DNA from: Clostridia bacterium
GTDB lineage: Bacteria > Bacillota > Clostridia > Oscillospirales > CAG-272
Assembly: GCA_017481495.1 (NCBI GenBank)
Contig: JAFUPC010000024.1
Coordinates: forward strand, 10,790 to 74,789
Direction of reading: 5' to 3'
DNA: 64,000 nt
Positions 33,932 through 46,981 of the stretch are shown piece by piece. The position numbers and the translations under genes were made by a program. Numbering within the stretch: position 1 is the first letter of the stretch; every line of letters starts with the position of its first letter. The notes below the pieces were generated by a model. It had not been told where the DNA came from. It saw only the letters and a list, made by a program, of their open reading frames with translations, and did not search any database.

Positions 33932-33965
33932 ATTATAATAAAAGGAAAGAAAGGGTTCAAAAACC

Positions 33966-36815
33966 ATGCGATTCTATACTCTGACCGGCGACCGTGCGCC
34001 GGAGCTTCAAAAGGAACGGGACTTTCTGCGCTTCACGGAGGGGGGTGCTGCGGCGGTTCTGCTTTACTGCCCGAATGTCCTTGCACACGGGAAGCGAATT
34101 TCGTTGGCTGATACTTCTACGGCGGACAACGATGCCGTCCGTACCTTTGCGGTCGGCGGGGTGATTTATGTTCCCGTGACCCTGTTCACAGAACACTTCG
34201 GCGCGGCGTTTGACGGTGCTGTGCTTTCCCGCGAAAACAGAAATTACCCGGTTTCCGGTGAATACCGGACGGGCGGCATTCCGGCGGTTCCGGTGCTTGC
34301 GGCGGCGGATGCACTCGGACTGTCCGCAAAGGCGTATGACGGCGGGCGGTTTGCCGTGGTCGGAGGAGCGGAAGACCTTGCGGTGCTTGACGGGGATGCC
34401 GCGCTCGTTCATGCGGGAATGTATGCGATGTTTGACGAATACGATGCCTCACGCTTCACGCACGAGGACTATAAAAAAGCAAAAGATCACTGGCGGCGCA
34501 AGCTGGTCGGAACTGCGGAAACGAATGACCTCTCAAGTCCCGCCGTTGCCGCCAAGATCGGCTATTTCGAGCGGATGTGCGAAAAGCGCATGGAGACCCT
34601 GAACCGCAAATCCTCTCCCGATGATGCGGATCCCGTGATCCTCTGGGGCGATGCTCCCGCCGTGGAATCCGAGGATGCGACTGCGCAGGCGCGGTATATA
34701 AACGACCTTGCGCGCGGCTGGGCAGCACCCGGCAGTAAATTCTACCATAACGACACCCTGCTTGCCGACATTTTATATGCGCTTGACTGGATGTACCGCC
34801 ATCTCTACGGACAGGCGGAGATCGACGGAACCGGCTGGCGTGACGTGCACATCTTCAACTGGTGGGACTGGTATGTCGGCGTGCCGGAGCATTTGACCGA
34901 CATCATTTTCCTCATCGAGGAGCATCTGACAAAACAGCAGATCAAACAGTATCTCGCGGTGTTTGAATACGTCTACACCTTTATGCGCCACAGGGAAACG
35001 ACCGGGGAGGCGATGAGCCGCATCTGCATCTGCACGAAGGTCGGTCTGGCGCTGGAGGAAGCGGCATATCTGAACCGTGAGGCATACGATTTCGATATTC
35101 TTCTGGAGTTGAACGAAGAAGGCTTCGGCCCGCACGTCGATTATCTCGATTTCACGCACGGAATGCCGTACAACATGGCTTACGGCATCCTGAATCTCGA
35201 CCGGGAGCTGCTCGTTGCCTCCATTCTGTCCGAAACGGCGCTTGCCTATCAGTCGCCGCAGATGTACAATCAGTTTTTGCTGGCAAAATATACGTTTGAA
35301 CCGGCGATGTATCACGGATGCGGCTTTTCGATGTTCCGCGGACGTTCCATCGGTCATGCGGATCTCGGTTCCGGCGTTTCCGTCATGGCGAATCTGCTCC
35401 CAATGATCGGCGTGTTCGGGGAGGATGAAGACCGCTACATAAAGACCATGATCAAGTCACACTGCAAAAATCCCGAATTTGCATCTTCCCTGCGCGGCAG
35501 ATGCTCCTTATACGACTTGGCGGTTTTGGAAGATCTTCTGCGCGATGAAACGATTCCCAATGATAAGAACTACGAATACGCCCACGCCTATTTCACCGGC
35601 GACCGCGCCGTTCAGCACAGAAACAATTATGCCGTCGGCATTGCGATGTCCTCCTCCCGTGAGCCGTCCTATGAAAGCATCAACAGCGCAAACAAAACCG
35701 GCTGGTACACGGGCGACGGCGCGATGTATCTTTACACGACGTATGACGAACACGCATACGACGGATGCAATTTCATCGATAATCTAAACATCGCGTACCG
35801 CTTCCCCGGCACGACCGAGGACGAACGAGAGCGGGTCATCCGCTCCATCCGCAGCACCGAGGCGTGGAATATGCCGACGGATTTCGCCGGTTCGGTTTCG
35901 GTAAAGGAAAAATATCTGACCGCCGCGATGGACTTTGTTTCCTACGATTTCGCCGGCCCCGAAAAAGACATTCCCGACACCGGCTACGGCGGCGGACTTG
36001 CCATTCACCGAAACGACCTGCACGCAAAGAAAGCGTGGTTCTGCTTTGATAAAGAAATCGTTGCGCTCGGCGCGGGTATCACCTCATCAATGGATTCCCC
36101 CGTTGCAACGACCCTTGAACACCGCCGCATCGTGCGCGACGGAGAATTTTCGCAGAGCATCTGTGCCGGGAATCATACCGAAACACTGCCCAAGGAACCG
36201 TACCGCTCAGCGTACAACGATGCCGCATGGCTCTCGATTGCCGGACACGCGGGATTCGTTTTCCTTGAAAAGACAGACATCGAATGTGCGCGCTACAACT
36301 GCGGCGAGGAATACAACAGCGCCAACTGCAAAGGACAGCCGTACATGGAATTCCGCATCCGCCACGGCGAAAACCCGACCGATGCATCGTATGCCTACGC
36401 GGTTCTGCCGTATGCAAACGAATCTGCGCTTACCGCGTACAGCGCATCTCCCGAGGTCACAGTCCTTTCCAACACCCCCGCATTACAGGCCGTGCGGAAA
36501 TCTTCTCTCGGCATGACCGGGTATGCGTTCCACGAACGCGGTGTGTGCGACACCCTTTCTGTTGACACCTCGTGCATCGTCATGGAGGAATGTTCGGGCA
36601 GCATCCGCACTGTCACGATGACCGAGCCGACCCTGAAAGCCCCCCGCGTGACGCTGACCGTCGGCGGCCGGTACCGACTGATTTCCCAAAAGAAGTACGG
36701 CGAGCCTACCGACTACATCTCCGTTGTGTGCGGGGAGAAGGAAACGGTTATCATCTGCGACACGACAAGGGCAAACGGGCGGCCGTTTGAGGTGAAACTG
36801 GAAGTAATTTCCTGA
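33966..36815 (+). CDS. Polysaccharide lyase family 8-like protein (hyaluronate/chondroitin/xanthan lyase fold)
   Basis: 949 aa. NWWDWYVGVPEHLTDIIFLIEEHL resembles the PL8 NWWxxxIGxP block. Also WYTGDGAMYLY and later beta-sandwich-like regions. No signal peptide. Confidence 0.65.
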   Translation: MRFYTLTGDRAPELQKERDFLRFTEGGAAAVLLYCPNVLAHGKRISLADTSTADNDAVRTFAVGGVIYVPVTLFTEHFGAAFDGAVLSRENRNYPVSGEYRTGGIPAVPVLAAADALGLSAKAYDGGRFAVVGGAEDLAVLDGDAALVHAGMYAMFDEYDASRFTHEDYKKAKDHWRRKLVGTAETNDLSSPAVAAKIGYFERMCEKRMETLNRKSSPDDADPVILWGDAPAVESEDATAQARYINDLARGWAAPGSKFYHNDTLLADILYALDWMYRHLYGQAEIDGTGWRDVHIFNWWDWYVGVPEHLTDIIFLIEEHLTKQQIKQYLAVFEYVYTFMRHRETTGEAMSRICICTKVGLALEEAAYLNREAYDFDILLELNEEGFGPHVDYLDFTHGMPYNMAYGILNLDRELLVASILSETALAYQSPQMYNQFLLAKYTFEPAMYHGCGFSMFRGRSIGHADLGSGVSVMANLLPMIGVFGEDEDRYIKTMIKSHCKNPEFASSLRGRCSLYDLAVLEDLLRDETIPNDKNYEYAHAYFTGDRAVQHRNNYAVGIAMSSSREPSYESINSANKTGWYTGDGAMYLYTTYDEHAYDGCNFIDNLNIAYRFPGTTEDERERVIRSIRSTEAWNMPTDFAGSVSVKEKYLTAAMDFVSYDFAGPEKDIPDTGYGGGLAIHRNDLHAKKAWFCFDKEIVALGAGITSSMDSPVATTLEHRRIVRDGEFSQSICAGNHTETLPKEPYRSAYNDAAWLSIAGHAGFVFLEKTDIECARYNCGEEYNSANCKGQPYMEFRIRHGENPTDASYAYAVLPYANESALTAYSASPEVTVLSNTPALQAVRKSSLGMTGYAFHERGVCDTLSVDTSCIVMEECSGSIRTVTMTEPTLKAPRVTLTVGGRYRLISQKKYGEPTDYISVVCGEKETVIICDTTRANGRPFEVKLEVIS

Positions 36816-36967: not shown

Positions 36968-36996
36968 TTTACATTCTCCGGATTTTTTGCTATAAT
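36968..36996 (+). promoter_or_regulatory. Promoter of XRE-TPR regulator gene
   Basis: TTTACA, 17-nt spacer, then TATAAT. Confidence 0.6.
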
Positions 36997-37037: not shown

Positions 37038-38147
37038 ATGACAACCACAACACAGAACACCCTCTCGCAGGTCGTAAGAGAAAACCGCCGCAGACTGTCG
37101 CTGACGCAGGAGGAGCTGGCAGAACGGCTCGGGGTCACATCGCAGGCGGTCTCGAAATGGGAAACGGGCGCGGCGATGCCGGACATTACGCTTCTGCCGG
37201 TGCTTGCCAACTTTTTCTCCGTTTCGACCGACACCCTGCTCGGCGTGGATATTCACAAAAAAGAGGAACAGGTGAATGAAATTCTCGCCGAATACGGTCG
37301 TCTTGCGAATCTCGGCATGGAAAAAGAGAAATTCGACCTCATCTGCCGCGCTTATCGGGCATATCCGGGCGAAAACCGGATTGTCGAAAAATACATCTGG
37401 GGGCTGTGCTACGACCCGTATCACGGCGGCAGCGGTCTGCTTGCGCACGAAGAGGAACTGCTTTCCGTCTGCGGGCGGATCTTAAATGAATGTGTGGACG
37501 ACGAAGTGCGCTACTCGGCGGTCTCCGTTCTCTGCGGACTGTACCGGGACAAGGGCGACCTTGCGCGCGCGGAGGAAATGCTCTCCCGGCTTCCCGCGGA
37601 AATGCAGGGCGAGGAACGCGAATGCTTGTTTGCCCGCGGTGACACGCGCTGGTGGGACGCCATCCGCCGGAACGTGGTTTCCATTGTGGAAACGCTGACG
37701 GTCAAACTGCGCAACGAAGCACTTTTATCCACAGTCTCTCCCAAAGAACAGATCACACTGCTTGAAAAGGCCGTTTCACTCCTTATGCTGATCTACGACG
37801 ACGGCGATTATGGGTTTTCGCATTATCATCTGACGGAGCTGTACCACTGGATCGCCAACCGGTACCGCATGACAGGAGACGATGAAGCCGCCGCGAAGTA
37901 CCTGCGTCTCGGCTTTGCACACGCAAAGCAGTACGACAGCCTGCCCCCCGTGGTGATTCACACATCCCACGCCGTGCGCGGCGTGGTCTTCCGGCGGGCG
38001 GACGTGTCAAGCGGCTTCACCTGCAATCTGGTCAAACGGGAGCTGGATTATCTTTCCGCGTGGGAATGCTATGACGGCGTGCGGGAGGCGCCGTGGTATC
38101 GGGAAATCGTGGAAGAATTTGCGCCGTTCGGGAAAGATGGGAAATAA
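37038..38147 (+). CDS. XRE-family HTH regulator with large helical-repeat C-terminal domain (RRNPP-like architecture)
   Basis: LSQVVRENRRRLSLTQEELAERLGVTSQAVSKWETG HTH followed by about 300 aa predicted helical repeats. The HTH is paralogous to the 28070 gene. Confidence 0.8.
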   Translation: MTTTTQNTLSQVVRENRRRLSLTQEELAERLGVTSQAVSKWETGAAMPDITLLPVLANFFSVSTDTLLGVDIHKKEEQVNEILAEYGRLANLGMEKEKFDLICRAYRAYPGENRIVEKYIWGLCYDPYHGGSGLLAHEEELLSVCGRILNECVDDEVRYSAVSVLCGLYRDKGDLARAEEMLSRLPAEMQGEERECLFARGDTRWWDAIRRNVVSIVETLTVKLRNEALLSTVSPKEQITLLEKAVSLLMLIYDDGDYGFSHYHLTELYHWIANRYRMTGDDEAAAKYLRLGFAHAKQYDSLPPVVIHTSHAVRGVVFRRADVSSGFTCNLVKRELDYLSAWECYDGVREAPWYREIVEEFAPFGKDGK

Positions 38148-38166
38148 TTCGGCATTATGCGCAATG

Positions 38167-38200
38167 GGGACATCCTTCGAGGTGTCCCTTTCGTTTTGTT
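38167..38200 (+). terminator. Rho-independent terminator after XRE-TPR gene
   Basis: GGGACATC-n6-GGTGTCCC followed by TTTCGTTTTGTT. Confidence 0.7.
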
Positions 38201-38263
38201 GCACAAATCCATGAGTGCTTTTTTGTATAAAATGCCGAATTGGAATTATTTTTCTCAAAAATA

Positions 38264-38292
38264 TTGACATTTTATGTGAAGTCTGTTATAAT
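38264..38292 (+). promoter_or_regulatory. Consensus promoter of the secreted-protein/DUF5050/permease cluster
   Basis: TTGACA, 17-nt spacer, then TATAAT (TGt upstream); followed by a roughly 240-nt AT-rich leader. Confidence 0.65.
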
Positions 38293-38533
38293 AGAAACAG
38301 AAACATAAAAAGGAATGTTTTCCAAACCGATTTTTTCGGTGCGGGATGCAAATATATCATCCGCGAAACAAAGAGGTGATGCTCGACAGTACAACAATCA
38401 CCCTATGAAACATATGACTTTTTAGTGCATGGCATTTTTATATCCGAAGTTTGCATAGGTTGATTACCATCAATCTATGCGTTTGTTGTTTTTACAACAA
38501 AAAGACACAAGTCAAGAAAAACGAGGTACAAAA

Positions 38534-38965
38534 ATGCAAAAGAAAAAACTCATCGCCGCCATCACGGCAATCGCACTCACCGCGGCAACTCCGCTTGCCA
38601 TCCATGCGTATCAGGTAGCCACAACCGGTTCCTTAACTCTTGGAACAACAACAATGAGCGGTTATCTTTACCGTTCCAGTTCCTCCACCTATGTATTTTC
38701 GGCAGAGACAAGAATTGCTTCGCAGCCTTACGATTCCGCATCGCTGTCTGCAACCGTGCAAGTCTTCCCGTATGATGGATCTACAGTTGCACCTGTTTCT
38801 GCATCAACCTCCAAAGAGCAAAAAATTGCAGTCACAACAGGAACCACGAGTACCGATAACGCGTCCTCCGCATCTGGCACCCACACGGTTACATTCTACT
38901 ACGATGGTACTACCACGTTAAGCAAGACCGAATCCACATCATGGAGTAAATCAAATAACAATTGA
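38534..38965 (+). CDS. Small secreted Ser/Thr-rich protein, unknown function
   Basis: Signal peptide MQKKKLIAAITAIALTAATPLAIHA. Mature part of about 117 aa is more than one third S/T. Lower GC than surroundings. Confidence 0.55.
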   Translation: MQKKKLIAAITAIALTAATPLAIHAYQVATTGSLTLGTTTMSGYLYRSSSSTYVFSAETRIASQPYDSASLSATVQVFPYDGSTVAPVSASTSKEQKIAVTTGTTSTDNASSASGTHTVTFYYDGTTTLSKTESTSWSKSNNN

Positions 38966-38998
38966 TTTTCCATGTCATAAAAATCTTAAGGTAAGTGG

Positions 38999-39032
38999 TA
39001 TCGAACAATCTGTTCAGACAGATTGTTCGATA
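38999..39032 (+). other. Perfect 14-bp-stem intercistronic hairpin without U-tract
   Basis: TATCGAACAATCTG-TTCAGA-CAGATTGTTCGATA, between the secreted-protein stop (38965) and the lipoprotein ATG (39046). Confidence 0.8.
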
Positions 39033-39045
39033 CTCCATTATTAAA

Positions 39046-40278
39046 ATGAAAAAATATTTTTTGTTGATTTTCGTAGTGTTTGCTTTATCTTCATGTACCC
39101 ACCCCGACTCTCTTCCGGACGATTACAACTCCTCGATTACAATCGAACCTGCTTTCTATCTGCAATATGCCACCCAAGAATTTTCCTATCACACCTCCGA
39201 CGATGACAGCAAAACCGTTTCTCAAGGGCAAAAATACGATGCGTTCAGTCATCTGATGATTTACAACGGTTATCTGTATGCGTACCCATATACCACGATG
39301 TACCGCATCAATCCGGAAAACGGGAATATCACAACCGTTTGCACAGACCCGCTGTGTACGCATTCCAATATTGAATGTCCGTTTTTCGATGTGGACTTTT
39401 CATCATTTCAAATTGTGGACAACGCCGTGTATTTTGTCGGAAACAATACAACGCGGAATCCCGGCAAAGCAGGATTCACCTATTACCTGTACGACATTGC
39501 CGCCGGAACGTCTGAAACCGTAAACGCGCCGCATTCCGAGGATACCTTGCGCATCAACAATCCCGTCATTACCGACGATGGATGGTTTTATTACTATGAT
39601 TGCCTGTATGACGACGACAAGAAAGACTATCAGTATTTCATCCGTAAATATTCCCTGAAAACGGGGGAAGATAAAATCGTCCTTGAACCGGACGATTTCA
39701 GCACCACGCTGATTGACGAAATCGACGGGGAACTGTACTATCTGGACGGAATCGGTCTCGGCACATTCGACCCGGAAACCGGGGAAAAAACGCAGTTGTA
39801 CGACGGTTTCGCCGGAAACGCCGGATATGATGACGAATATTTCTATTTCCGCGACCGCGACAACTGCTTATACCGTCTTCCGATTGGTTCCGCCGAAGCC
39901 GAACGACTGACCGACTTCGGCGTGGAACAGTATTATATCACCGACAAGTATCTTTATTACAAAAAACAGGAAACCAACATCATCGGTTATTACGAAGACG
40001 GTACGCCCGCTGACATCGGCAGTCAGCAAATCTGGCGCATGAACAAGGACGGAACATCGCCGGAGCTTGTCTGGGAATTTACCGGGGCGTTATCCTGCAT
40101 GAACGTCGATAACTTTGCGGTACTCGGTGATTATATTTATTCCAAATTCTATTACTGGGACGATGCGCAGAAACACTACATCGAAAGCCAGAACGCCGGC
40201 GACAACGGCGGGAATATTTATCTCATGCGCGTTGACATCGAGAACCAAGAACTCTACTTTTTCAATCTGACGGAATGA
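39046..40278 (+). CDS. DUF5050-like beta-propeller lipoprotein
   Basis: Lipobox FVVFALSSCTH. Y/D/N-rich with reiterated LY(Y/R)..xxDG motifs (IWRMNKDGTSPELV, LYRLPIGSAEAERL). GC clearly below the window average. Confidence 0.6.
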   Translation: MKKYFLLIFVVFALSSCTHPDSLPDDYNSSITIEPAFYLQYATQEFSYHTSDDDSKTVSQGQKYDAFSHLMIYNGYLYAYPYTTMYRINPENGNITTVCTDPLCTHSNIECPFFDVDFSSFQIVDNAVYFVGNNTTRNPGKAGFTYYLYDIAAGTSETVNAPHSEDTLRINNPVITDDGWFYYYDCLYDDDKKDYQYFIRKYSLKTGEDKIVLEPDDFSTTLIDEIDGELYYLDGIGLGTFDPETGEKTQLYDGFAGNAGYDDEYFYFRDRDNCLYRLPIGSAEAERLTDFGVEQYYITDKYLYYKKQETNIIGYYEDGTPADIGSQQIWRMNKDGTSPELVWEFTGALSCMNVDNFAVLGDYIYSKFYYWDDAQKHYIESQNAGDNGGNIYLMRVDIENQELYFFNLTE

Positions 40279-40279
40279 T

Positions 40280-42688
40280 ATGCTCTCCTACGAACTCCGA
40301 AAACTCTTCTCTCCCCGCTGGCTTCGGGTGCTTGTCGTTGTTTTCCTTTTGCTGAACGCGGTGCTGTGCCTGTATACCACCCGTTACGCGGACGAATCCG
40401 TGCCGGATGACGACGTTTTGTCGCTGTTTGCGTGGGCGGCGGAAGATGCGGCGGGGGTACAGGCGGCGTATGCGGAAATCCGCGCGGAACAGGAAGCGGC
40501 GGATGCGCTGTGGCAGGAACAGATGCAGGCGGGGAATTACGACTACGAACCGCCCGTTCCCCCGAACCGCTACGTCACCGACGACCGTTACACGGACGCA
40601 CAGCTGTTTGCCGTTCTCTACCGCCACATCGACGCCATTCAATCCTACGACGGAACGGTCTCCGCCGTCATCCGCCAGGCGGAACGGAATCTGACCGAAT
40701 TTGACGCGATGGGCATTGCCCCCGATGCGTTCGTCTGCAAACTGCAGAACCGCAACATCGCGGTTTATTCCGCGCTTCTTGACACCGTGGAAATCGGATT
40801 TGAATACATCCGCGGCTGGGACACCTATCTGACCTACGGCACGGGCAATCTGTGCATGGCGGCGGTACTGCTGCTGTTCGCCTCCGTTCTGTTCACGGAA
40901 GAAGAACGGTGCGGCATTCTGCCGCTTCTGCGCACCTGCCGCCGCGGCAGAGGGGAAACCGCCCGGTGGAAGCTGCTTGCGCTGTTCGTCGTGACGGTGA
41001 GCACCGTTCTGGTGTTTTCCCTGGAATCGTTTGCCGTGTTCGGTCTGCGGCTCGGATATTCCAGTCCGTTCAACGTCGTGCAGGCGGTCGGGCTGTTCGC
41101 TCTGTGCCCGTATGCGATCAACATTCTGACGTATGCGGTTCTGCAGGTGTTTCTGCGCTGTCTTGTTCTGTTTGCGTTTGCGCTTGCCGTTGCGCTTATC
41201 AGCGTATTCTCTTATCATTACGCCGTCGTTTACGTCGGGGGACTTGGGATTCTCGGCGTGAACGTGCTTCTGGACGGGATTCTTTCCCTGAACGCCGATG
41301 CGCCCGCGAAGCTGCTCAATCTGCTCTCCGCCGCGGATACCACCGCCTTTTTTGAACGTCTGCGCGTGTCCGACGTGTTCGGCGCCGCCGTTGACACCGT
41401 TTGGCTTGCGGTCGCGGGGTACACGCTCGTTTCCCTTTTGTTTGGCATCGGCATTGTCGTAAAATTTATGCACAGTGCCGCAGCGGTACGGATTATATTG
41501 CCCGCATGGGCGGTTTCGCTTCGGCAGCGGTTTGCTTTTTTGAGGGAGCATTTTTCCCGGTTTCGTTTGCATTTTCCCGCCCGGGCGGCAAAAAAAGCAC
41601 CGCGCAGGTCGCTCTTTGGCTGGGAATGGCACAAAATGCTCATCGCGGCGCGCGTTCTGCCCGTGATTTTGCTTCTGTTCTGCGTGCGGTGCGCGTTGTC
41701 GGCAGATGCGGCGGACGTGACGCAGACGTTTTCCGATGCGGTTTACGAAGATTACATGACCCGCTGGCAAGGGGAGCTGACCGACACCGCCCGTGCGGAA
41801 ATCGCCGCCGAGCGCGCGTACATAAGCGAAACCCTGTCGGAGGAAACGGAAGTGCGCCTTTCGTATCTCGACGGGGAAATCTCCTACGACGAATACGCCG
41901 CGTGGCTGGTCGAATACAATTACGCCTTTACCCACGCGGAGCTGTTTTGCGAAATCGAAGACCACGTTTTGTATGTGGATCGGATGGCGGCGGCGGGATA
42001 CGGTGCGTGGTTTGTGTACGACACCGGTTGGGAAGCGCTGTTGTTTTCCGACTTTGATTTCACGCTGTATGCGGCGTTTCTGCTTCTGTTCGCCGGTGTT
42101 TTCGCGGTGGAATACGACACGTCCTCCTCAAACGGCGGCTTCTCGCAGATTCTGCGCTGTGCCAGACACGGCCGCCGCGCGACATTCCGCGCAAAATATT
42201 CCGCCGCAATAGTGGCATCGCTGTGTTTTTCCGTGTTGTGGAATGTGGCGGACATTGCGTTTGTTTCATTGGCATACCCGTTTCCCTCGCCCAATGCACC
42301 GGTTCTGTCGCTGGAATCCTGCGCATCCCTTGCCGCTTCCCATTCTCCGCTTGCCGCGTTTGCGGCGGATATGAGCATTGCCGGATTCTTTGCGCTGGTT
42401 CTGCTTCTGCGGATACTGTCGTCCGTTTTACTTGCGGTTCTCTTGTGTGCGCTTTCCGCACTTCTGCGCCGGTTGATCTCCGTGCTTGCAACGGCGATGC
42501 TTCTGACCGTTTTCCCGGCACTCTTGTCGTATTTTGGGTTTTCCTCGCTGTCGTTTCTTGATTTTACGGCGCTTTTGCGGGGGCATACGGCACTCTTGTC
42601 GCATACCCGACCGGAGCTTCTGCTTTTGGGGTGCGTGACCGTCTGCGTTTTTCTGTCCGGTGCCGCGTATCGGAGATTTTGTAAATAA
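40280..42688 (+). CDS. Tandem-fused ABC-2-type permease-like membrane protein (2 x about 6 TM)
   Basis: 802 aa. Two similar modules (aa 1-400 and 445-802), each with an N-terminal TM, a roughly 150-aa loop and five clustered TMs. Start lies 1 nt after the upstream stop. No ATPase gene nearby. Confidence 0.6.
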   Translation: MLSYELRKLFSPRWLRVLVVVFLLLNAVLCLYTTRYADESVPDDDVLSLFAWAAEDAAGVQAAYAEIRAEQEAADALWQEQMQAGNYDYEPPVPPNRYVTDDRYTDAQLFAVLYRHIDAIQSYDGTVSAVIRQAERNLTEFDAMGIAPDAFVCKLQNRNIAVYSALLDTVEIGFEYIRGWDTYLTYGTGNLCMAAVLLLFASVLFTEEERCGILPLLRTCRRGRGETARWKLLALFVVTVSTVLVFSLESFAVFGLRLGYSSPFNVVQAVGLFALCPYAINILTYAVLQVFLRCLVLFAFALAVALISVFSYHYAVVYVGGLGILGVNVLLDGILSLNADAPAKLLNLLSAADTTAFFERLRVSDVFGAAVDTVWLAVAGYTLVSLLFGIGIVVKFMHSAAAVRIILPAWAVSLRQRFAFLREHFSRFRLHFPARAAKKAPRRSLFGWEWHKMLIAARVLPVILLLFCVRCALSADAADVTQTFSDAVYEDYMTRWQGELTDTARAEIAAERAYISETLSEETEVRLSYLDGEISYDEYAAWLVEYNYAFTHAELFCEIEDHVLYVDRMAAAGYGAWFVYDTGWEALLFSDFDFTLYAAFLLLFAGVFAVEYDTSSSNGGFSQILRCARHGRRATFRAKYSAAIVASLCFSVLWNVADIAFVSLAYPFPSPNAPVLSLESCASLAASHSPLAAFAADMSIAGFFALVLLLRILSSVLLAVLLCALSALLRRLISVLATAMLLTVFPALLSYFGFSSLSFLDFTALLRGHTALLSHTRPELLLLGCVTVCVFLSGAAYRRFCK

Positions 42689-42695: not shown

Positions 42696-42743
42696 CCGTC
42701 CCCGGTATGCGTTTATGGCAGATGGGGACGGCTGTGTTTTTTA
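42696..42743. terminator. Hairpin terminator between convergent genes
   Basis: CCGTCCCC-n20-GGGGACGG followed by CTGTGTTTTTTA; A-rich on the other side. Confidence 0.65.
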
Positions 42744-44084
42744 TATCTTCTGCGCCGGAGCATTCTGTTCCTGCGCGGATCGCGCTTTCGCGGCGGCTTT
42801 CCGTTCGCGGACGATCTTATACAGCTCTTCCGCCGCAAGCCGGGTCTTGGCAACGACATCGCCCGTGTTCTGCGGGAAACAGTAATACAAGGTTTTGGTG
42901 TCGCCAATGCAGATCATGTCGCCGATCTCGTACCAGTAATAATCGGAATACAGGCTGTACGAAGCAAGCGGCTTCTGTGTATAATCAAGTCGCGGGACAC
43001 CGGCTTCATCCGGGCATCCGGTCAGGTGGAACCCACTCTCACTGTGGGTCAGACGTCCGTTTCCGACCCGATAGATGGCGCGGGTATCGACCAGCATCCG
43101 GATTTCCACCGAAATGTCGAGCTTATAAGTGCCGGCAAGCAGTTCTTCCCTGACACACCTGCGCTCCCAGCGGTACCAGTCGGGGATGTGCGGATATTCG
43201 GTCTCGCCGCCGGTCGCCTGCATCTGTCCGTTTTCAAGCAGGGTGTAGGATTTTCCGCACGCGCCGCAGGTAAGGGTGATGCCGCCGGCGGTCATCTGTC
43301 CCTCTGTCATGCAATTTGGACATTTATAGAGAACTCTTGACAGTCCCTCCGCGCGCTCGGGATGGTCGATGCGGACATTTTTATCTCTCTGCCACGCGAA
43401 ATTGTCAAAGGAAAATTTCTCGCGCAGGATGTCCATCAGTTCATCTGCCGTCTTTTCTTTGGTATCCGCGGGGGAAAAGAGGTATTCCATATCCGCCGAA
43501 ACCCGGACACGGCGGGTGCGGAGGCCGTTGTACAGCGGGGTGCGCGCAAACGCGCCGTAAGTGCGGATCATGATGACCGGAACGCCAAGCATCTTGACGA
43601 GACCGCCAAGCGAATCCGGCAGATCGGTCGCCGTTCCGTCAAAGCTGTAGCTGGCCTCCGGATACATGAGGATCGCGGCGTTCTGCTCCTTCACCGCATA
43701 CTGCATATCGCGGACAAGGTTGAGGTCTGTGACGAATTTTGTCGTCGGAATGCACCCGATGAGCCGCATGAGCAGTTCCATGCCGAACCCGACGAAGCCG
43801 TCGGAGGTGCAGACAATGTGAAACCGTCGCGGAAAGAGACACGCCGATGCGATTTTCAGGTCGAGAAAGCAGGAATGGTTCATTAAGATCAGGCACGGTT
43901 CGTTTTTCCCGAGCTTTTCCATGCCGATGCGGTTCACCGAAAAATGCGTTGCCCAGAGGTCGGGCATGGACAAGATTCGGATCAATCCATGCAGAAAACG
44001 GCTCGGCCGCATGGGCTTTTTGTGTTTTGGGCGCGGAATGGCGCAGACCTTTTCATAAGAGAGGTCTTTTTTGGTAATTTTCAT
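42741..44084 (-). CDS. PlsC-type acyltransferase with C-terminal zinc-ribbon-containing domain
   Basis: HxxxxD motif in LILMNHSCFLD. ATG 44084 follows GGAGG. The C-terminal half contains YKCPNCMTEG...LTCGACGKSY. Confidence 0.75.
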   Translation of the reverse strand: MKITKKDLSYEKVCAIPRPKHKKPMRPSRFLHGLIRILSMPDLWATHFSVNRIGMEKLGKNEPCLILMNHSCFLDLKIASACLFPRRFHIVCTSDGFVGFGMELLMRLIGCIPTTKFVTDLNLVRDMQYAVKEQNAAILMYPEASYSFDGTATDLPDSLGGLVKMLGVPVIMIRTYGAFARTPLYNGLRTRRVRVSADMEYLFSPADTKEKTADELMDILREKFSFDNFAWQRDKNVRIDHPERAEGLSRVLYKCPNCMTEGQMTAGGITLTCGACGKSYTLLENGQMQATGGETEYPHIPDWYRWERRCVREELLAGTYKLDISVEIRMLVDTRAIYRVGNGRLTHSESGFHLTGCPDEAGVPRLDYTQKPLASYSLYSDYYWYEIGDMICIGDTKTLYYCFPQNTGDVVAKTRLAAEELYKIVRERKAAAKARSAQEQNAPAQKI

Positions 44085-44116
44085 GGTCGCCTCCGGAGGG
44101 GTTGTTGTGAATGGAG

Positions 44117-45160
44117 TTATCCGCGGTACAATTCCGCCGCGCGGCGCAGGATGTCGGCGGATTCGCCTGGAATGCGGCCAAGGCCGTCGGGGCCGACATT
44201 GATGAGATAATTGATGCCAAGGTCGTTCAGACGGCGGCGGTTGGATGCCAGTGTTTCCGGGGAGATCCAGTTGTGGTCGCGGTAGGAAAATCCCCACGAC
44301 CGGTTGAGTGTGCAGGCGGACTCATAAAGGCCGTACTTTGACGGCTTGAAGCCGCCGATGTTCTGATAGTCGATGGTTTCGGGGTCGATCTGCGACAGGC
44401 GTTCCCACTCGGCACGGTCGCGGGGAATCTCGTTGTCGCCGAGCGACACATAATCGTACACGCCGTTGCCCAGCCGGGAATTGATGAGACAGTCCGGCTG
44501 CAGGCGTTTGACCGTCTCGTAAATACGCCGGGACTGCTCCGCCGTGATTGTCATCGGGACGTCGAACCATGCAAGGAACACATCGCCGTAATTGGTCATG
44601 ATCTCCTCGATCTGCGGCAGGATCTTCTTTTCAAAGCAAACGGAAAAATCCTTTCCCTCCGTCTCCGGCCAGTCCCAGCTGTTGTCCCACGAAACGCCGG
44701 AGCACGGAATATGCCGCGATAAGTATCCGCCGCCGTGGTATTCGTGCCAGTCGAGATCCTGCGAATAATAAAATCCGAGCTTCAGTCCGTACTTGCGGCA
44801 GGCATCCGCCAGCTCTCCAATGATGTCGCGGCCAAACGGTGTTGCATCGACGACGTTGTACGCATCGACCTTGGAATGGAACAGCGCAAAGCCATCGTGA
44901 TGCTTTGTCGTCACGACAAGATACCCCATCCCGCAGTCGCGCGCCAGCCGCACAATCTCCTCCGCATCAAAATAAATAGGATTGAACGCCGATGCGAGTT
45001 TTTCGTACTCCTTTATCGGAATGCCGAAATACGCGCCGATCCACTCCGCGTAATCACTGCTCTTTTTCCCGCGGTATTCGCCCGCAAGCAGGGAGTACAG
45101 GCCAAAGTGCATCATCATTCCGCAGCCGGAATTTTTGAAATAGGAAATATTTGGGTTCAT
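44117..45160 (-). CDS. Alpha-L-fucosidase (GH29), catalytic domain only
   Basis: GMMMHFGLYS, VVTTKHHDGFALFHSK and WHEYHGGGY blocks are typical of GH29. 347 aa. No signal peptide. Confidence 0.85.
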   Translation of the reverse strand: MNPNISYFKNSGCGMMMHFGLYSLLAGEYRGKKSSDYAEWIGAYFGIPIKEYEKLASAFNPIYFDAEEIVRLARDCGMGYLVVTTKHHDGFALFHSKVDAYNVVDATPFGRDIIGELADACRKYGLKLGFYYSQDLDWHEYHGGGYLSRHIPCSGVSWDNSWDWPETEGKDFSVCFEKKILPQIEEIMTNYGDVFLAWFDVPMTITAEQSRRIYETVKRLQPDCLINSRLGNGVYDYVSLGDNEIPRDRAEWERLSQIDPETIDYQNIGGFKPSKYGLYESACTLNRSWGFSYRDHNWISPETLASNRRRLNDLGINYLINVGPDGLGRIPGESADILRRAAELYRG

Positions 45161-45239
45161 GATGGTAGGCTCCTTGTGATTTTCTTTCTTTCATAATTAT
45201 ACCAGATAAATGCGCAGATGTCAATATGTATATCAAGAC

Positions 45240-45275
45240 AATAAAGAAGCACCCCCGTTATCCGGAAGTGCTTCC
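45240..45275 (-). terminator. Weak terminator candidate after symporter gene
   Basis: GAAGCAC-n15-GTGCTTC with only a short T-run on the minus strand. Confidence 0.35.
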
Positions 45276-45290
45276 ATTTCAAAAACATGA

Positions 45291-46832
45291 TTATTTGCCA
45301 AGATGCTCTTTCGTCGGCACGCTGATCTGTGCTTCGTAGCAAGAGAACATTTCCTCGGTCTTCTTCTCGTCTGGTTTCGGGGTCAGGAGGCTGACGACCG
45401 GGACGAGAACGATGCTGATGAGCATGACGACCGCGCCGCAGTTGACGGGCGACTGCATGAATGCGGGGAACGCACTGCGCACGACCATGTTCAGAATCAT
45501 CACGACAACGCCGAAGACGAACGAGACACAGCACGCGGCTTTCGTGGTGCGTTTCCAGTAAAGACCGTAGAGGAACGGTGCCAGGAATGCGCCCGCGAGC
45601 GCGCCCCAGGAAATTCCCATCAGCTGTGCGATGGAGGAAATGTTGAAATAATACTGGAGCAGTGCAATGACGGCGGAGATGAGAACGAACACCGCAATCA
45701 GCACACGCATGATGACGAGCTGCTGTTTTTCGCTGATCTCTTTCTTCGACAGCGGCTTGATGAGGTCGATGGTAAAGGTCGAGGAGGAGGTCAGAACGAG
45801 CGAGGAAAGCGTGGACATGGATGCGGACAGCACCAGGATGACAACAACACCCATAAGCAGATCCGGAAGTCCTTCCAGCATTGCCGGGACAAGACCGTCA
45901 TAACCGCCGACGGTGGTGTAATCGTCTACGAACAGTCTGCTGAAACCGCCGAGGAAATAGCATCCACCGGCAACGATGATGGCAAACAGCGTGGAAATGA
46001 TGGTGCCCTTGCCGATCGCCTTTTCGCTCTTGATGGCGTAGAATTTACCGACCATCTGCGGCAGACCCCAGGTACCGAGCGAGGTCAGGATGACAACGCA
46101 CAACAGGTTGAACGGGTCGGGTCCGAAGAACGACGTGAAGATGCCGGGAACCTCCCCGTATTCCAGAGAGGCATCCGTGACCTGTGCAAGACCTGCAACG
46201 GAGCCCATCAGACCGCCGTTCCGGTTCAGTACCGCCACAATGACAGCGGCGATGCCCGCCAGCATGATGATGCCCTGAATGAAGTCGTTGACCGCGGTCG
46301 CCATATAGCCACCGACGATGACATAGACCGCCGTCAGCGCCGCCATTGCGATGATACAGACACTGTAATCAATGTTGAACGCCATCGCGAACAGACGGGA
46401 GAGACCGTTGTACAGGGATGCCGTATAGGGGATCATGAAAATGAAAATGATGACTGCTGCGAAAATTTTCAGCGCTTTGGAGGTAAAGCGCTTTTCAAAA
46501 AATTCGGGCATGGTCGCGGTGCCGAGATGCTGTGTCATCAGTCTGGTGCGGCGGCCGAGAATGACCCACGCAAGCAGCGAGCCGATGAACGCATTGCCAA
46601 GGCCGATCCATGTGGAAGCCATACCGAATTTCCATCCGAACTGACCCGCATAACCGACGAAAATGACCGCGGAGAAATACGAAGTGCCGTAAGCAAACGC
46701 CGTCAGCCACGGGCCGACCGCACGTCCGCCGAGAACAAAGCCGTTGACGTCCGTTGCCGAGCGGCGGCAGAGCACGCCTACCGTGACCATCAGGGCAAAA
46801 AACGCAACCAGGAGTACGATTTTGATTACCAT
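45291..46832 (-). CDS. Sodium:solute symporter (SSS family)
   Basis: Polytopic. N-terminus FVLGGRAVGPWLTAFAYGTSYFSAVIFVGYAGQFGW is typical of PanF/PutP-like SSS carriers. ATG 46832 lies 9 nt after AAGGAA. Confidence 0.9.
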   Translation of the reverse strand: MVIKIVLLVAFFALMVTVGVLCRRSATDVNGFVLGGRAVGPWLTAFAYGTSYFSAVIFVGYAGQFGWKFGMASTWIGLGNAFIGSLLAWVILGRRTRLMTQHLGTATMPEFFEKRFTSKALKIFAAVIIFIFMIPYTASLYNGLSRLFAMAFNIDYSVCIIAMAALTAVYVIVGGYMATAVNDFIQGIIMLAGIAAVIVAVLNRNGGLMGSVAGLAQVTDASLEYGEVPGIFTSFFGPDPFNLLCVVILTSLGTWGLPQMVGKFYAIKSEKAIGKGTIISTLFAIIVAGGCYFLGGFSRLFVDDYTTVGGYDGLVPAMLEGLPDLLMGVVVILVLSASMSTLSSLVLTSSSTFTIDLIKPLSKKEISEKQQLVIMRVLIAVFVLISAVIALLQYYFNISSIAQLMGISWGALAGAFLAPFLYGLYWKRTTKAACCVSFVFGVVVMILNMVVRSAFPAFMQSPVNCGAVVMLISIVLVPVVSLLTPKPDEKKTEEMFSCYEAQISVPTKEHLGK

Positions 46833-46981
46833 AAAAATGATTTCCTTCCCTTGGGAATCTGTGTCGGGGATCCCCATATTTCAGCTTGCTAAAAGGATAC
46901 CACAGTTTCCCTGTTTTGTCAAGATATTTCCCGAAATTAAAATATTTTTTTGTCGGAAAGAAAATATTTTTCAAAAAGCCC

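What the first reader, a model, noticed from the sequence alone, without database searches (positions are those of the whole stretch)
37038..42688. Lower-GC four-gene cluster: XRE-helical-repeat regulator, Ser/Thr-rich secreted protein, DUF5050-like lipoprotein, double ABC-2-like permease
The cluster runs as follows:
- The regulator gene, then a terminator.
- A perfect consensus promoter (38264-38292) with a ~240-nt leader.
- A 143-aa secreted S/T-rich protein.
- A 14-bp-stem hairpin.
- A 410-aa Y/D/N-rich propeller-like lipoprotein.
- 1 nt later, an 802-aa membrane protein.

The stretch 38.15-40.28 kb is visibly AT-richer than the flanks, roughly mid-40s % versus about 60% by eye. None of the three effector proteins has an assignable function, no ATPase is present, and the set is wedged between glycan-utilisation genes and an acyltransferase. 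It looks like a self-contained envelope or export module under a dedicated sensor-regulator, and is the best candidate in this window for an undescribed system.
Basis: partly seen in the sequence, partly recalled or inferred. Interest (0 to 1): 0.7.

Follow-up and report, generated by a model that had tools for sequence, protein, structure and literature searches.

The report
ATPase-less ABC-2 transporter cassette, strain-variable
The four genes are real and belong to a rare, uncharacterised envelope transporter cassette of uncultured gut Clostridia (small secreted protein, propeller lipoprotein, fused double ABC-2 permease). Relatives also carry an ATPase that is missing here, and the AT-rich part is a block that differs between near-identical strains.

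Summary
Regulator 37038-38147, a perfect promoter at 38264-38292, a 143-aa secreted protein, a hairpin, a 410-aa lipoprotein and an 802-aa membrane protein. GC falls to 0.37-0.49 against about 0.57.

The permease is an internally duplicated ABC-2-like protein, and the lipoprotein is a DUF5050-like beta-propeller. The module is not self-contained:
- I held 66 related loci, all from Clostridia MAGs, plus one Clostridium tagluense plasmid.
- In them the permease is nearly always paired with 1-7 propeller lipoproteins.
- It is usually also paired with one highly conserved ABC ATPase.
- The window lacks that ATPase.
- The XRE regulator is not a conserved partner. Relatives use an ECF sigma gene abutting a permease with an N-terminal extension, or a leader-peptide attenuator that survives here only as a remnant.

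The AT-rich stretch coincides with a 1.56-kb block, covering the mature small protein and nearly all of the lipoprotein. A 98-99% identical strain carries a 50-60% identical allele of this block.

Function is unknown. My best guess, at low confidence, is a cognate secreted-protein/lipoprotein pair working with an exporter energised in trans, for self-protection or competition. This is a new variant of a known kind and of moderate interest.

The parts
36968..36996 (+). Promoter-like site (TTTACA-17-TATAAT, 11 of 12) in front of the regulator gene
37038..38147 (+). 369-aa regulator. It has an N-terminal XRE-type HTH (residues 9-68) and a C-terminal helical domain of about 300 aa with only faint TPR matches. 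GC is host-like (0.575). It is not a conserved partner of the cassette.
   Evidence: Pfam HTH_3 E 9e-13; TPR_19 and TPR_14 E about 0.03, below cut-off. PDB matches cover the HTH only. Found next to the cassette only in the window, L001 and L003.
38166..38199 (+). Terminator-like hairpin plus T-run that ends the regulator transcript
38264..38292 (+). Perfect sigma-70-type promoter, TTGACA-17-TATAAT, with a TG extension
   Evidence: sequence read
38293..38533 (+). Structured leader of about 240 nt. No Rfam family matches. It is 100% identical in the sister strain L003 apart from a 1-nt indel.
   Evidence: MFE -65.5 kcal/mol, z = -4.8; Rfam negative; identity profile
38396..38465 (+). Candidate antiterminator. 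38396-38410 can pair with 38451-38465, which is the 5' arm of the leader terminator.
   Evidence: Inverted repeat I3, 15 nt, 87% complementary
38433..38462 (+). Decayed remnant (9 codons, MAFLYPKFA-stop) of the conserved leader ORF seen in relatives. The frame is not conserved in L003.
   Evidence: Sequence compared with the leader ORFs of L002, L004, L005, L045, L046 and L072
38452..38491 (+). Terminator-like hairpin (13 pairs, loop 4) plus T-run inside the leader, 43 nt before the start codon of the small gene. It is homologous in position and partly in sequence (GCATAGGTTG...CTATGCG) to the attenuator terminator of relatives.
38534..38965 (+). 143-aa Sec-type secreted protein. Predicted cleavage is after AIHA, before the conserved YQV. 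The mature 118 aa are 41% Ser+Thr, pI 5.6, without Cys, and predicted all-beta. It is an orphan family.
   Evidence: Alignment A3; composition; 9 clusters among 1.84 billion representatives; AF2 pLDDT 52 with no fold match
38625..40187 (.). Strain-variable replacement block covering the mature small protein, the spacer and all but about the last 30 codons of the lipoprotein. Identity to the sister strain L003 is 30-70% here, against 97-100% immediately outside.
   Evidence: blastn; MAFFT identity profile; GC and GC3
38997..39034 (+). 17-bp perfect stem-loop between the small gene and the lipoprotein gene, without a U-tail. A strong hairpin at this position is seen in 8 of 9 relatives folded, and a ninth overlaps the stop codon of its small gene. 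The sequences are unrelated.
39046..40278 (+). 410-aa lipoprotein. Lipobox LSSC with Cys17, a disordered tether to about residue 68, then a beta-propeller. The motif C99-x2-P-x-C104-x-H106-x4-C111 is invariant or nearly so across the family.
   Evidence: AF2 pLDDT 67.8, pTM 0.72; Foldseek 3s25 (Eubacterium rectale 7-bladed propeller) with target-normalised TM-score 0.63, plus BamB and designed propellers; DUF5050 in 3 of 14 family members, best 3.5e-9; alignment A2
40280..42688 (+). 802-aa fused double ABC-2-like permease. Each half has TM1, a large acidic extracytoplasmic loop (153 and 114 aa), then TM2-6. The cytoplasmic loops after TM2 and TM2' carry the family-invariant E..G..LR..GR motifs. 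GC is host-like (0.578).
   Evidence: ABC2_membrane_4 E 4.6e-4, below cut-off; ABC2_membrane_2, _3 and _4 in homologues; the two halves are homologous, hhalign probability 99.5%, E 3.5e-23; alignment A1

Best explanation
SHOWN.
- Window 38264-42688 is one copy of a rare, uncharacterised cassette family of Clostridia. Its conserved core is a fused (rarely split) double ABC-2-type permease, one or more DUF5050-like beta-propeller lipoproteins, and a dedicated, very conserved ABC-2-type ATPase.
- One sub-clade, to which the window copy belongs, adds in front a small Sec-secreted Ser/Thr-rich beta protein. A strong hairpin follows that gene.
- The window copy has no ATPase gene in 64 kb.
- Its leader-peptide attenuator is decayed.
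- It sits beside a host-GC XRE regulator that is not a conserved partner.
- The AT-rich DNA corresponds to the promoter and leader plus a 1.56-kb block (mature small protein plus nearly the whole lipoprotein). This block has been exchanged for a 50-60% identical allele in a 98-99% identical strain.

INFERRED (mechanism).
- A strong promoter drives the operon. Transcription must pass a leader terminator.
- The hairpin after the first gene would make the small protein much more abundant than the membrane components.
- The lipoprotein, tethered to the outer face of the membrane, and the small protein form a cognate pair that varies together. This pair works at the two large ectodomains of the permease.
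- The permease keeps the conserved cytoplasmic loops where an ATPase would dock, so it is probably energised by an ATPase of the same family encoded elsewhere in the genome.

Most likely role.
- About 35-40%: self-protection or competition at the envelope. The logic resembles that of LanI/LanFEG or the lactococcin-972 operon. A lipoprotein captures an envelope-active peptide or protein and an ABC-2 exporter expels it. The small secreted protein would be the cognate effector or ligand.
- The architecture and evolutionary statements above are high-confidence. The functional assignment is low-confidence.
For: Conserved unit:
- Small protein, lipoprotein, permease and ATPase occur in the same order, with overlapping stops and starts, in L002, L004, L005, L008, L013 and L015.
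- A genome-wide scan gave 64 loci. After removing duplicates among all the loci held, 66 carry a full-length permease. Of these, 61 have at least one lipoprotein paralogue, 50 have one within 300 nt, and 42 have the ATPase family.
- A split-permease version with an ATPase, a DUF5050 lipoprotein and a small secreted protein lies on Clostridium tagluense plasmid pCM022-183, next to agrBD.

ATPase:
- It is 73-89% identical between loci whose other genes are 23-80% identical.
- Its best NCBIfam matches are all ABC-2-type exporter ATPases: GldA, DrrA, PedB-type, lantibiotic protection and the Lcn972 group.

Folds and topology.

Allelic block.

Intact and constrained genes: dN/dS between the window and L003 is 0.42 for the permease and 0.31 for the regulator, against 0.06-0.40 for neighbouring genes.

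Hairpin after the small gene: 8 of 9 loci folded, z from -4 to -6.4, and a ninth seen in the sequence.

Control typical of stress, quorum or resistance modules:
- An ECF sigma gene lies directly upstream of 23 permeases, and those permeases carry an N-terminal extension of about 45 aa.
- A leader ORF ends inside a terminator. Compare the BmrCD leader-peptide attenuation (PMC4191407).
- LytTR regulators occur in 5 loci.

Functional analogues in the literature:
- The LanI lipoprotein with LanFEG, an ABC transporter with one NBD and two six-helix TMDs (PMC5786555, PMC4828448).
- lcn972 with orf2-orf3, a putative immunity ABC transporter (PMC4055356).
Against: - No member of the family has been studied, so function rests on architecture and analogy.
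- The mature small protein is acidic to neutral (pI 4.7-6.9) and Cys-free. It has no sequence or fold similarity to any bacteriocin.
- No processing, modification or lysis genes recur nearby.
- The window copy lacks the ATPase and its leader ORF is decayed. The sister strain's lipoprotein gene is split by a frameshift. The locus may therefore be losing function in this lineage.
- Most family loci have no small protein detectable with my profile (9 of 66), although more divergent ones exist.
- Arrays of up to 7 co-transcribed lipoproteins, and ECF coupling, would fit an uptake or receptor system equally well.
- PADLOC, phage, plasmid and viral-contig searches give no defence or mobile-element link.
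Confidence: 0.5

Rival explanations
1. Acquisition system. The abundant small secreted protein scavenges a ligand such as a metal, cofactor or lipid. The propeller lipoprotein(s) act as surface receptors, and the ABC-2 transporter moves the cargo inward. Several lipoprotein paralogues would be receptors of different specificity feeding one transporter. Strain variation would come from phage or host pressure on exposed receptors.
For: - The part list matches PedA1A2BC of Pseudomonas putida: a permease, an ATPase, a YVTN beta-propeller protein and a periplasmic binding protein, required for lanthanide-dependent growth (PMC6839425).
- The relatives' ATPase scores third-best against the PedB-type model TIGR03864 (E 2e-44 to 9e-47).
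- Having the first gene in excess through an intercistronic hairpin is also the classic design of binding-protein-dependent importers (my knowledge of malEFG).
- The invariant Cys3-His motif in the lipoprotein could bind a metal.
- Sigma/anti-sigma coupling to a transporter is also typical of uptake systems such as FecIRA (my knowledge).
Against: - The NCBIfam models for the Ped permease and propeller do not match, and the ATPase score is far below the family cut-off.
- ABC-2 folds are overwhelmingly exporters.
- The small protein has no recognisable binding fold.
- No metal-responsive or nutrient-responsive regulator or riboswitch was found.
Confidence: 0.2
2. Decaying remnant. In this lineage the cassette is no longer a working system. 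The ATPase was deleted, the attenuator ORF is broken, and the genes persist only because the loss is recent.
For: - There is no ATPase in 64 kb, and only 52 nt separate the permease stop from the convergent acyltransferase gene.
- The leader ORF is reduced to 9 codons and is shifted in frame in L003.
- The L003 lipoprotein is split into two ORFs.
Against: - All three ORFs are intact in the window and in the identical contig L001.
- The 802-aa permease is intact in both strains, with dN/dS 0.42, similar to its neighbours.
- The promoter is a perfect consensus and is 100% conserved.
- Maintenance of two divergent alleles of the block argues for selection.
- ATPase-less copies with long flanks also occur elsewhere (L032, L034, L056, L070). 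In at least one genome (RGIG6940) they coexist with loci that do have the ATPase.
- The L003 frameshift could be an assembly error.
Confidence: 0.2
3. A self-contained, ATPase-independent envelope or export module under a dedicated XRE sensor-regulator.
For: - The regulator is adjacent, and no ATPase lies in the window.
- XRE-type genes lie within a few kb of some relatives: L002, L013, L042 and L055.
Against: - The ATPase is part of the operon in most relatives.
- The permease retains the family-invariant cytoplasmic loop motifs.
- This particular HTH plus helical-repeat regulator occurs beside the cassette only in this lineage, and it has a paralogue 9 kb away.
Confidence: 0.1

Closest known systems
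LanI / LanFEG lantibiotic self-immunity (e.g. NisI, NisFEG) and CprABC resistance
   Same: - A surface lipoprotein plus an ABC-2-type transporter built from two permease domains and a separate ATPase.
- The operon follows the gene of a secreted product.
- Stress or quorum-type control (PMC5786555, PMC4828448).
- The relatives' ATPase hits the lantibiotic-protection model at E about 1e-39.
   Different: - LanE and LanG are separate proteins of about 25-28 kDa with six helices each and no large ectodomain. Here the two halves are fused, about 400 aa each, with ectodomains of 153 and 114 aa.
- The lipoprotein is a beta-propeller with no detectable relation to any named family.
- There are no lanthipeptide genes.
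- All model scores are below the family cut-offs.
- The window has no ATPase.
Lactococcin 972 operon (lcn972-orf2-orf3)
   Same: - The first gene encodes a small protein exported with a Sec-type signal peptide (for Lcn972 this is from my own knowledge).
- It is followed by a large membrane protein and an ABC ATPase thought to give immunity (PMC4055356).
- The relatives' ATPase hits TIGR03608 at E 1e-30 to 1e-35.
   Different: - The small protein does not match Pfam Lactococcin_972 or any PDB chain.
- It is larger (118 aa mature) and acidic.
- The cassette has an extra propeller lipoprotein.
- The membrane protein is ABC-2-like.
- The ATPase score is below the cut-off (119.7 against 254.85 bits).
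PedA1A2BC-type ABC system
   Same: The four-part composition is the same: secreted or periplasmic protein, beta-propeller protein, ABC-2-type permease and ATPase (PMC6839425). The ATPase similarity is E about 1e-45.
   Different: - That system is proteobacterial and periplasmic, and is linked to PQQ dehydrogenases and lanthanides.
- Neither the permease nor the propeller matches the NCBIfam models of that system.
- Here the permease is fused and the propeller is lipid-anchored.
DUF5050 beta-propeller proteins (PDB 3S25, EUBREC_1955; TsgL of T7SSg)
   Same: - The best-fitting natural fold match has a target-normalised TM-score of 0.63.
- Pfam DUF5050 is detected in 3 of 14 family members, and above threshold in the C. 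tagluense homologue.
   Different: - The window protein itself scores no Pfam hit.
- The family adds a lipobox, a long tether and a Cys3-His motif.
- DUF5050 has no known function. Its one described context is a type VII secretion variant (bioRxiv 10.1101/2024.01.30.577966), which is absent here.
ECF sigma operons with ABC-2 transporters (B. subtilis sigY-yxlCDEFG) and transporter-coupled signalling (BceAB-BceRS)
   Same: In 23 related loci an ECF sigma gene abuts or overlaps the permease gene, and the permease carries an extra N-terminal cytoplasmic segment of about 45 aa in the position of an anti-sigma domain. Coupling of a transporter to its own induction is the Bce logic (PMC5786555). The sigY operon content is from my own knowledge.
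   Different: - A fusion of an anti-sigma segment to a double ABC-2 permease is not something I know to be described. It is an inference from gene position only.
- The window copy has neither the sigma gene nor the extension.
Leader-peptide transcription attenuation of ABC exporters (bmrB-bmrCD)
   Same: Relatives have a translated ORF of 38-50 codons whose stop codon lies in the 5' arm of an intrinsic terminator just upstream of the operon. BmrCD is controlled by ribosome-mediated attenuation (PMC4191407).
   Different: - The peptide (…LxYPIKRIHxxA-stop) is unrelated to BmrB as far as I can tell.
- What the peptide senses is unknown.
- In the window the ORF is decayed and only the terminator and antiterminator pairings remain.

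Membership tests
ABC-2 type transporter permease (Pfam ABC2_membrane clan) | Sequence match to an ABC-2 membrane-domain model | tested here: inconclusive
   The window protein matches ABC2_membrane_4 at E 4.6e-4, 20.7 bits, below the 27-bit cut-off. Among 10 family members, 6 hit ABC2_membrane_4 weakly, one hits ABC2_membrane_2 at 3.9e-8 and one hits ABC2_membrane_3 at 2.3e-5. No NCBIfam model matches.
ABC-2 type transporter permease (Pfam ABC2_membrane clan) | About six helices per domain with the N-terminus inside, two domains per transporter | tested here: met
   A hydropathy scan and the charge bias of the loops give 2 x (TM1, large outside loop, TM2-6). The two halves are homologous (hhalign probability 99.5%, E 3.5e-23). 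This is a crude predictor, not a structure.
ABC-2 type transporter permease (Pfam ABC2_membrane clan) | A cognate ABC ATPase encoded with it | tested here: not met
   None in the 64-kb window. The feature is met in relatives: the ATPase family is present in 42 of 66 loci, often overlapping the permease stop.
LanFEG / LanI lantibiotic immunity | NCBIfam lantibiotic-protection ATPase and permease models; LanE/LanG-sized six-helix subunits; link to lanthipeptide genes | tested here: not met
   The relatives' ATPase scores 133-138 bits against TIGR03740, whose cut-off is 309.75. No permease model matches. No lanthipeptide genes recur among neighbours. The halves are about 400 aa and carry ectodomains.
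Lactococcin 972 family bacteriocin | Match to Pfam Lactococcin_972 or to the solved Lcn972 sequence | tested here: not met
   No Pfam hit for any of 8 small proteins, even at E <= 10. A profile search of the PDB returned only chance hits. The structure model is too poor to compare folds (pLDDT 52).
DUF5050 / beta-propeller | Pfam PF16472 match; multi-bladed all-beta propeller fold | tested here: inconclusive
   The window protein has no Pfam hit. Among homologues, 3 of 14 hit DUF5050 (best 3.5e-9), and the C. tagluense homologue scores 47.1 bits against a cut-off of 27. The AF2 model is an all-beta propeller (pTM 0.72), with 3s25 as the best natural match (target-normalised TM-score 0.63). Fold membership is met. 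Family membership is only distant.
Bacterial lipoprotein | Signal peptide ending in a lipobox [LVI][ASTG][GAS]C | tested here: met
   MKKYFLLIFVVFALSSC, with LSSC at residues 14-17. Pfam LPAM_1 is weak (E 0.07). Most paralogues carry a similar box. Lipid modification itself cannot be tested here.
PedA1A2BC-type ABC system | NCBIfam models for the ATPase (TIGR03864), the permease and the propeller of the PQQ-associated system | tested here: not met
   The relatives' ATPase scores 152-160 bits against a cut-off of 302. No model of that system matches the window permease or lipoprotein.
RRNPP-type (HTH + TPR) peptide-sensing regulator | N-terminal XRE HTH, C-terminal TPR sensor domain, and a cognate small secreted pro-peptide gene | tested here: inconclusive
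   The HTH is met (HTH_3 E 9e-13). TPR matches are only faint (E about 0.03). No PDB relative covers the C-terminal 300 aa. No short pro-peptide gene was identified.
Known anti-phage defence systems (PADLOC) | Match of any effector protein to a PADLOC model | tested here: not met
   No hit for the small protein, the lipoprotein or the permease. Only the generic HTH and ATPase domains match.
Rfam cis-regulatory RNA | Covariance-model match of the leader | tested here: not met
   Nothing relevant in the window at gathering threshold or at E <= 10, nor in six related loci.

The most novel reading that the evidence does not exclude
The family is a new kind of Gram-positive envelope machine. A double ABC-2 permease with two large ectodomains, in an ABCA-like layout, exchanges cargo with interchangeable, strain-specific beta-propeller lipoproteins and an abundant secreted partner protein. 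It reports its own activity to gene expression in one of two ways: through an anti-sigma segment fused to the permease, or through a previously undescribed leader peptide (…YPIKRIHxxA-stop) that ends inside a terminator. The small-protein/lipoprotein block would then define specificity groups, much as the variable region of agr does.
Probability: 0.15. Interest if true: 0.75.

Novelty: new variant of a known kind. Interest (0 to 1): 0.5.

Why it matters
If the reading holds, it defines an unstudied ABC-2 transporter family that recurs, often in several copies per genome, in uncultured gut and rumen Clostridia. Three of its features are unusual: arrays of propeller lipoproteins, a permease that may double as an anti-sigma factor, and a conserved leader peptide ending in a terminator.

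The allelic block shows that surface or secreted partner proteins are being swapped between near-identical strains. That points to strain-level competition, recognition, or phage and host pressure in the gut.

A homologous operon on a plasmid of the cultured Clostridium tagluense CM022 makes the system open to experiment.

For this window in particular, the result is more modest. The copy lacks its ATPase and its attenuator ORF.

Tried and rejected
- **Riboswitch or known RNA in the leader.** Rfam at gathering threshold and at E <= 10 found nothing.
- **Homology to solved structures.** None for the lipoprotein, the permease or the regulator's C-terminal domain.
- **Small protein as a lactococcin-972-like or other known bacteriocin.** No Pfam or PDB signal. 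The AF2 model is too weak (pLDDT 52), so its Foldseek hits (E >= 0.68) are meaningless. A weak DUF5050-unrelated hit, DUF5068, appears in two homologues below cut-off and I did not take it further.
- **Anti-phage defence or phage, plasmid or viral carriage.** PADLOC is negative for the effectors. There is no phage match and no relatives in viral contigs. The only plasmid hit is the C. tagluense operon.
- **ATPase hidden in the window.** tblastn was negative.
- **Mosaic origin (permease native, first two genes foreign).** Rejected as a strong claim. Across loci the three genes diverge roughly in parallel, and the nearest permease (43%, L015) belongs to a cassette with a small-protein remnant. 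The GC contrast is better explained by recent replacement of the block.
- **Other recurrent neighbour genes that might reveal a substrate.** Clustering of 1032 flanking ORFs gave only further lipoproteins, another ABC ATPase type, BspA-like LRR proteins, LytTR regulators and anti-sigma-like proteins.
- **More small-protein loci from metagenomes.** One scan failed for lack of a conserved stretch, and the repeat found one locus nearly identical to L002.
- **An operator shared by the two promoters.** No convincing shared repeat.

Full report
**Observation**

The ORF list confirms four co-directional genes:
- 37038-38147 (369 aa).
- 38534-38965 (143 aa). The listed ORF starts at 38477, but the ATG at 38534 follows a GAGG ribosome-binding site and begins a typical signal peptide.
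- 39046-40278 (410 aa). The listed GTG at 38995 lies inside a hairpin.
- 40280-42688 (802 aa).

- A terminator-like hairpin follows the regulator at 38166-38189.
- There is a 12-of-12 TTGACA-17-TATAAT site at 38264-38292.
- GC is 0.37-0.49 across 38.0-40.2 kb, against 0.52-0.61 around it.
- GC3 is also low in the two AT-rich genes (0.46 and 0.58, against 0.69).

- The hairpin between genes 2 and 3 has a 17-bp perfect stem (38997-39034, z = -6.4).
- The leader is a highly structured RNA (z = -4.8). It holds a terminator-like hairpin with a T-run (38452-38491) and a competing 15-nt pairing (38396-38410 with 38451-38465).

**What the proteins are**

- **Regulator.** It has an XRE HTH (HTH_3 E 9e-13). 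The remaining 300 residues give only faint TPR matches and have no relative in the PDB.
- **Small protein.** It matches no family. Its mature form is 118 aa, 41% Ser+Thr, pI 5.6 and Cys-free. An exhaustive HMMER pass over 1.84 billion representative proteins found only 9 related clusters. Its AF2 model is all-beta but poor (pLDDT 52) and has no fold match.
- **Lipoprotein.** It has a lipobox (LSSC, Cys17), a disordered tether and a beta-propeller (AF2 pTM 0.72). The best natural structural match is the 7-bladed propeller EUBREC_1955 (3S25, target-normalised TM-score 0.63), followed by BamB. Pfam DUF5050 is detected in some homologues but not in the window protein. A motif C-x2-P-x-C-x-H-x(4-6)-C is invariant or nearly so across the family.
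- **Membrane protein.** The 802-aa protein is an internal duplication (hhalign probability 99.5%). Each half has TM1, a large acidic outside loop (153 and 114 aa), then TM2-6. ABC-2 models match weakly here and better in homologues.

**Relatives and context**

The word-indexed protein searches found only 8, 7 and 3 homologues. Their contigs were decisive:
- L001 is identical to the window.
- L003 is a sister strain with the same flanking genes (SASA esterase, family-8 polysaccharide lyase, acyltransferase, fucosidase, SSF transporter).
- The low-GC contigs L002, L004, L005, L008 and L013 carry small protein, lipoprotein, permease and then a fourth gene that overlaps the permease stop. That fourth gene is an ABC ATPase (PF00005, E down to 1e-30).
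- A second architecture (L009-L012) has an ECF sigma gene overlapping or abutting a longer permease, followed by 3-6 tandem lipoprotein genes of about 440 aa. These are paralogues of the window lipoprotein (E 1e-20 to 1e-23).

A scan of one genome per species with the permease alignment returned 64 loci. All are from uncultured Clostridia of animal guts and rumens.

I built my own profiles for the six components and searched them against all ORFs. After removing duplicates among all the loci I held, 66 carry a full-length permease:

| Feature | Loci (of 66) |
|---|---|
| At least one lipoprotein paralogue | 61 |
| Lipoprotein within 300 nt of the permease | 50 |
| Three or more lipoprotein paralogues | 24 |
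| ECF sigma gene directly upstream | 23 |
| The ATPase family in the held sequence | 42 |

- Most loci without the ATPase are cut by a contig end within about 350 nt of the module.
- The full L009 contig (L033) ends its lipoprotein array with the ATPase.
- The ATPase is 73-89% identical between loci whose other components are 23-80% identical.
- Its best NCBIfam matches are ABC-2 exporter ATPases (GldA, DrrA, PedB-type, lantibiotic protection, NodI, Lcn972 group). All are below the curated cut-offs.
- The sigma-linked permeases carry an N-terminal extension of about 45 aa that the others lack. From its position I infer an anti-sigma role. This inference is untested.

One cultured organism carries the module, Clostridium tagluense CM022, on plasmid pCM022-183. 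The gene order is: a small secreted protein, two hypothetical proteins, the ATPase, the two permease halves as separate genes, and a DUF5050 lipoprotein. The operon runs divergently from agrBD. Apart from the ATPase and the DUF5050 protein, these genes are annotated as hypothetical proteins.

**The window copy is a variant**

- It has no ATPase. Only 52 nt separate the permease stop from the convergent acyltransferase gene, and tblastn finds no family ATPase anywhere in the 64 kb.
- ATPase-less copies with long flanks exist elsewhere (L032, L034, L056, L070). In MAG RGIG6940 they coexist with loci that have the ATPase.
- The window permease keeps the family-invariant motifs in the cytoplasmic loops after TM2 and TM2'. 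It is intact in both strains, with dN/dS 0.42, close to its neighbours.
- Supply of the ATPase in trans is therefore the most economical reading, although decay cannot be excluded.
- The regulator is not a conserved partner. It has host-like GC and its own promoter and terminator, and a paralogue lies at 28040-28768.

**The AT-rich stretch**

- The window and L003 are 98-99% identical over 20 kb, except for one block.
- A global alignment places the break sharply. Identity is 97-100% up to about 38578 and from 40188 onward, and 30-70% between about 38625 and 40187.
- The block holds the mature small protein (60% aa identity between alleles), the spacer, and all but about the last 30 codons of the lipoprotein (about 51%).
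- The signal peptide, the promoter and leader, and the permease are outside the block.
- The L003 allele is even more AT-rich (GC3 0.37-0.38), and its lipoprotein reading frame is split.
- This is allelic replacement by recombination in conserved flanks, not local hypermutation. Between species, the small protein and the lipoprotein diverge no faster than the permease.
- Because the two proteins were exchanged as one unit, the block is what one would expect of a cognate interacting pair. This is an inference.

**Regulatory anatomy**

- In 8 of the 9 small-protein loci I folded, the spacer after the small gene holds a long hairpin (z from -4 to -6.4). The sequences are unrelated. In the ninth, the hairpin overlaps the stop codon.
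- Such a hairpin would raise the ratio of the first product to the membrane components.
- In L002, L004, L005, L079, L045, L046 and L072, a promoter is followed by a 38-50-codon ORF ending …L-x-Y-P-I/M-K-R-I-H-x-x-A-stop.
- In the last 13 sense codons, 8 of the 13 variable columns are third codon positions.
- The stop codon lies in the 5' arm of an intrinsic terminator. A TAG-to-TAA change in L046 is matched by a C-to-U change in the 3' arm.
- The gene for the small secreted protein starts 25-35 nt downstream of the terminator in the four loci where that spacing was read.
- This looks like a translated attenuator of the kind that controls bmrCD (PMC4191407). No Rfam family matches.
- The window retains the terminator, a competing pairing and a 9-codon remnant (38433-38462). 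The remnant is shifted in frame in L003.

**Mechanism and comparison**

Architecture places the family among ABC-2 systems with extracytoplasmic accessory proteins. Three known systems come closest:
- LanI/LanFEG: a lipoprotein that binds the peptide, plus a two-TMD ABC exporter (PMC5786555, PMC4828448).
- The lactococcin-972 operon: the structural gene, plus a putative immunity ABC transporter (PMC4055356).
- PedA1A2BC: a binding protein, a beta-propeller protein, a permease and an ATPase (PMC6839425).

Membership in each was tested and not met.

The following favour a protective or competitive role (about 35-40%):
- Control by ECF sigma, leader peptide, agr and LytTR elements.
- Arrays of divergent lipoproteins.
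- The co-varying small-protein/lipoprotein block.

The following argue against it:
- The small protein is acidic and unlike any bacteriocin.
- No processing genes recur nearby.

An acquisition system (about 20%) and a decaying remnant (about 20%) remain live alternatives.

**Verdict**

The system is indeed undescribed, but it is an ATP-driven ABC-2 cassette whose ATPase is missing here, and its regulator is incidental.
- Novelty: a new variant of a known kind.
- Interest is moderate (0.5). It comes mainly from the family-level features and the allelic block, not from this degenerate copy.

Noticed in passing
L002 1494-1628; L004 82-234; L005 148-297; L079 479-613; L045 6779-6895; L046 1470-1586; L072 3265-3393 (remnant in window 38433-38462): A conserved translated leader ORF of 38-50 codons ends …L-x-Y-P-I/M-K-R-I-H-x-x-A-stop. 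Its stop codon lies in the 5' arm of an intrinsic terminator just upstream of the small-protein gene. Variation is mostly at third codon positions, and one compensatory change (TAG to TAA with C to U) keeps the stem. No Rfam match. It is a candidate new leader-peptide attenuator.
   Followed up: partly
L009/L033 (sigma 9279-9857, permease 9854-12415, six lipoprotein genes 12435-20502, ATPase 20442-21401); likewise L012, L022, L026, L068, L074: In 23 loci an ECF sigma gene abuts or overlaps a permease that carries an extra N-terminal segment of about 45 aa (…IDDRFLLAADD…). Up to 7 translationally coupled, divergent propeller-lipoprotein paralogues and the ATPase follow. The segment may be an anti-sigma domain fused to an ABC-2 permease.
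   Followed up: partly
L080 = Clostridium tagluense CM022 plasmid pCM022-183 (NZ_CP086156.1 163922-176353): This is the only cultured-organism copy found. Gene order is: a small secreted protein, two hypothetical proteins, the ATPase, the two permease halves as separate genes, and a DUF5050 lipoprotein. The operon is divergent from agrB/agrD. Apart from the ATPase and the DUF5050 protein, the genes are annotated as hypothetical proteins.
   Followed up: partly
L003 9540-9764 and 9752-10732: In the sister strain the lipoprotein reading frame is split into two overlapping ORFs near codon 75. This is either a frameshift (pseudogene) or a metagenome assembly error.
   Followed up: partly
L072 3643-4953: An ISL3-family transposase gene (DDE_Tnp_ISL3, E 4e-59) sits inside the small-secreted-protein gene of a Frisingicoccus MAG, between its signal-peptide part and the rest.
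   Followed up: partly
window 28040-28768 (+): A second XRE-HTH plus TPR protein (242 aa) is paralogous to the regulator of the finding (E 9e-21 against its profile). These regulators therefore form a small family in this genome.
   Followed up: no
window 60033-63323 (+): A 1096-aa ORF has an N-terminus with ECF-type sigma regions 2 and 4, followed by a long extension with a DUF3108-like stretch. It is either a sigma factor fused to a large C-terminal domain, or two genes merged by my ORF call.
   Followed up: no
window 38146-38156 and 38231-38241: A perfect 11-nt inverted repeat (AATTCGGCATT / AATGCCGAATT) brackets the regulator's terminator. It ends 23 nt upstream of the -35 hexamer of the cassette promoter. 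It could be an operator or part of a longer stem.
   Followed up: no
window 32408-36815 and 42741-46877; tRNA at 47056-47127: The flanking genes are host-glycan genes: SASA esterase, family-8 polysaccharide lyase, alpha-L-fucosidase and an SSF transporter, plus an acyltransferase. They are syntenic and 98-99% identical in L003. The cassette sits between them with no evident functional link.
   Followed up: partly
L060 13579-13634: The 5' end of a group II intron (RF02001, E 3e-7) lies at the edge of a contig that carries a cassette with three lipoprotein genes.
   Followed up: no
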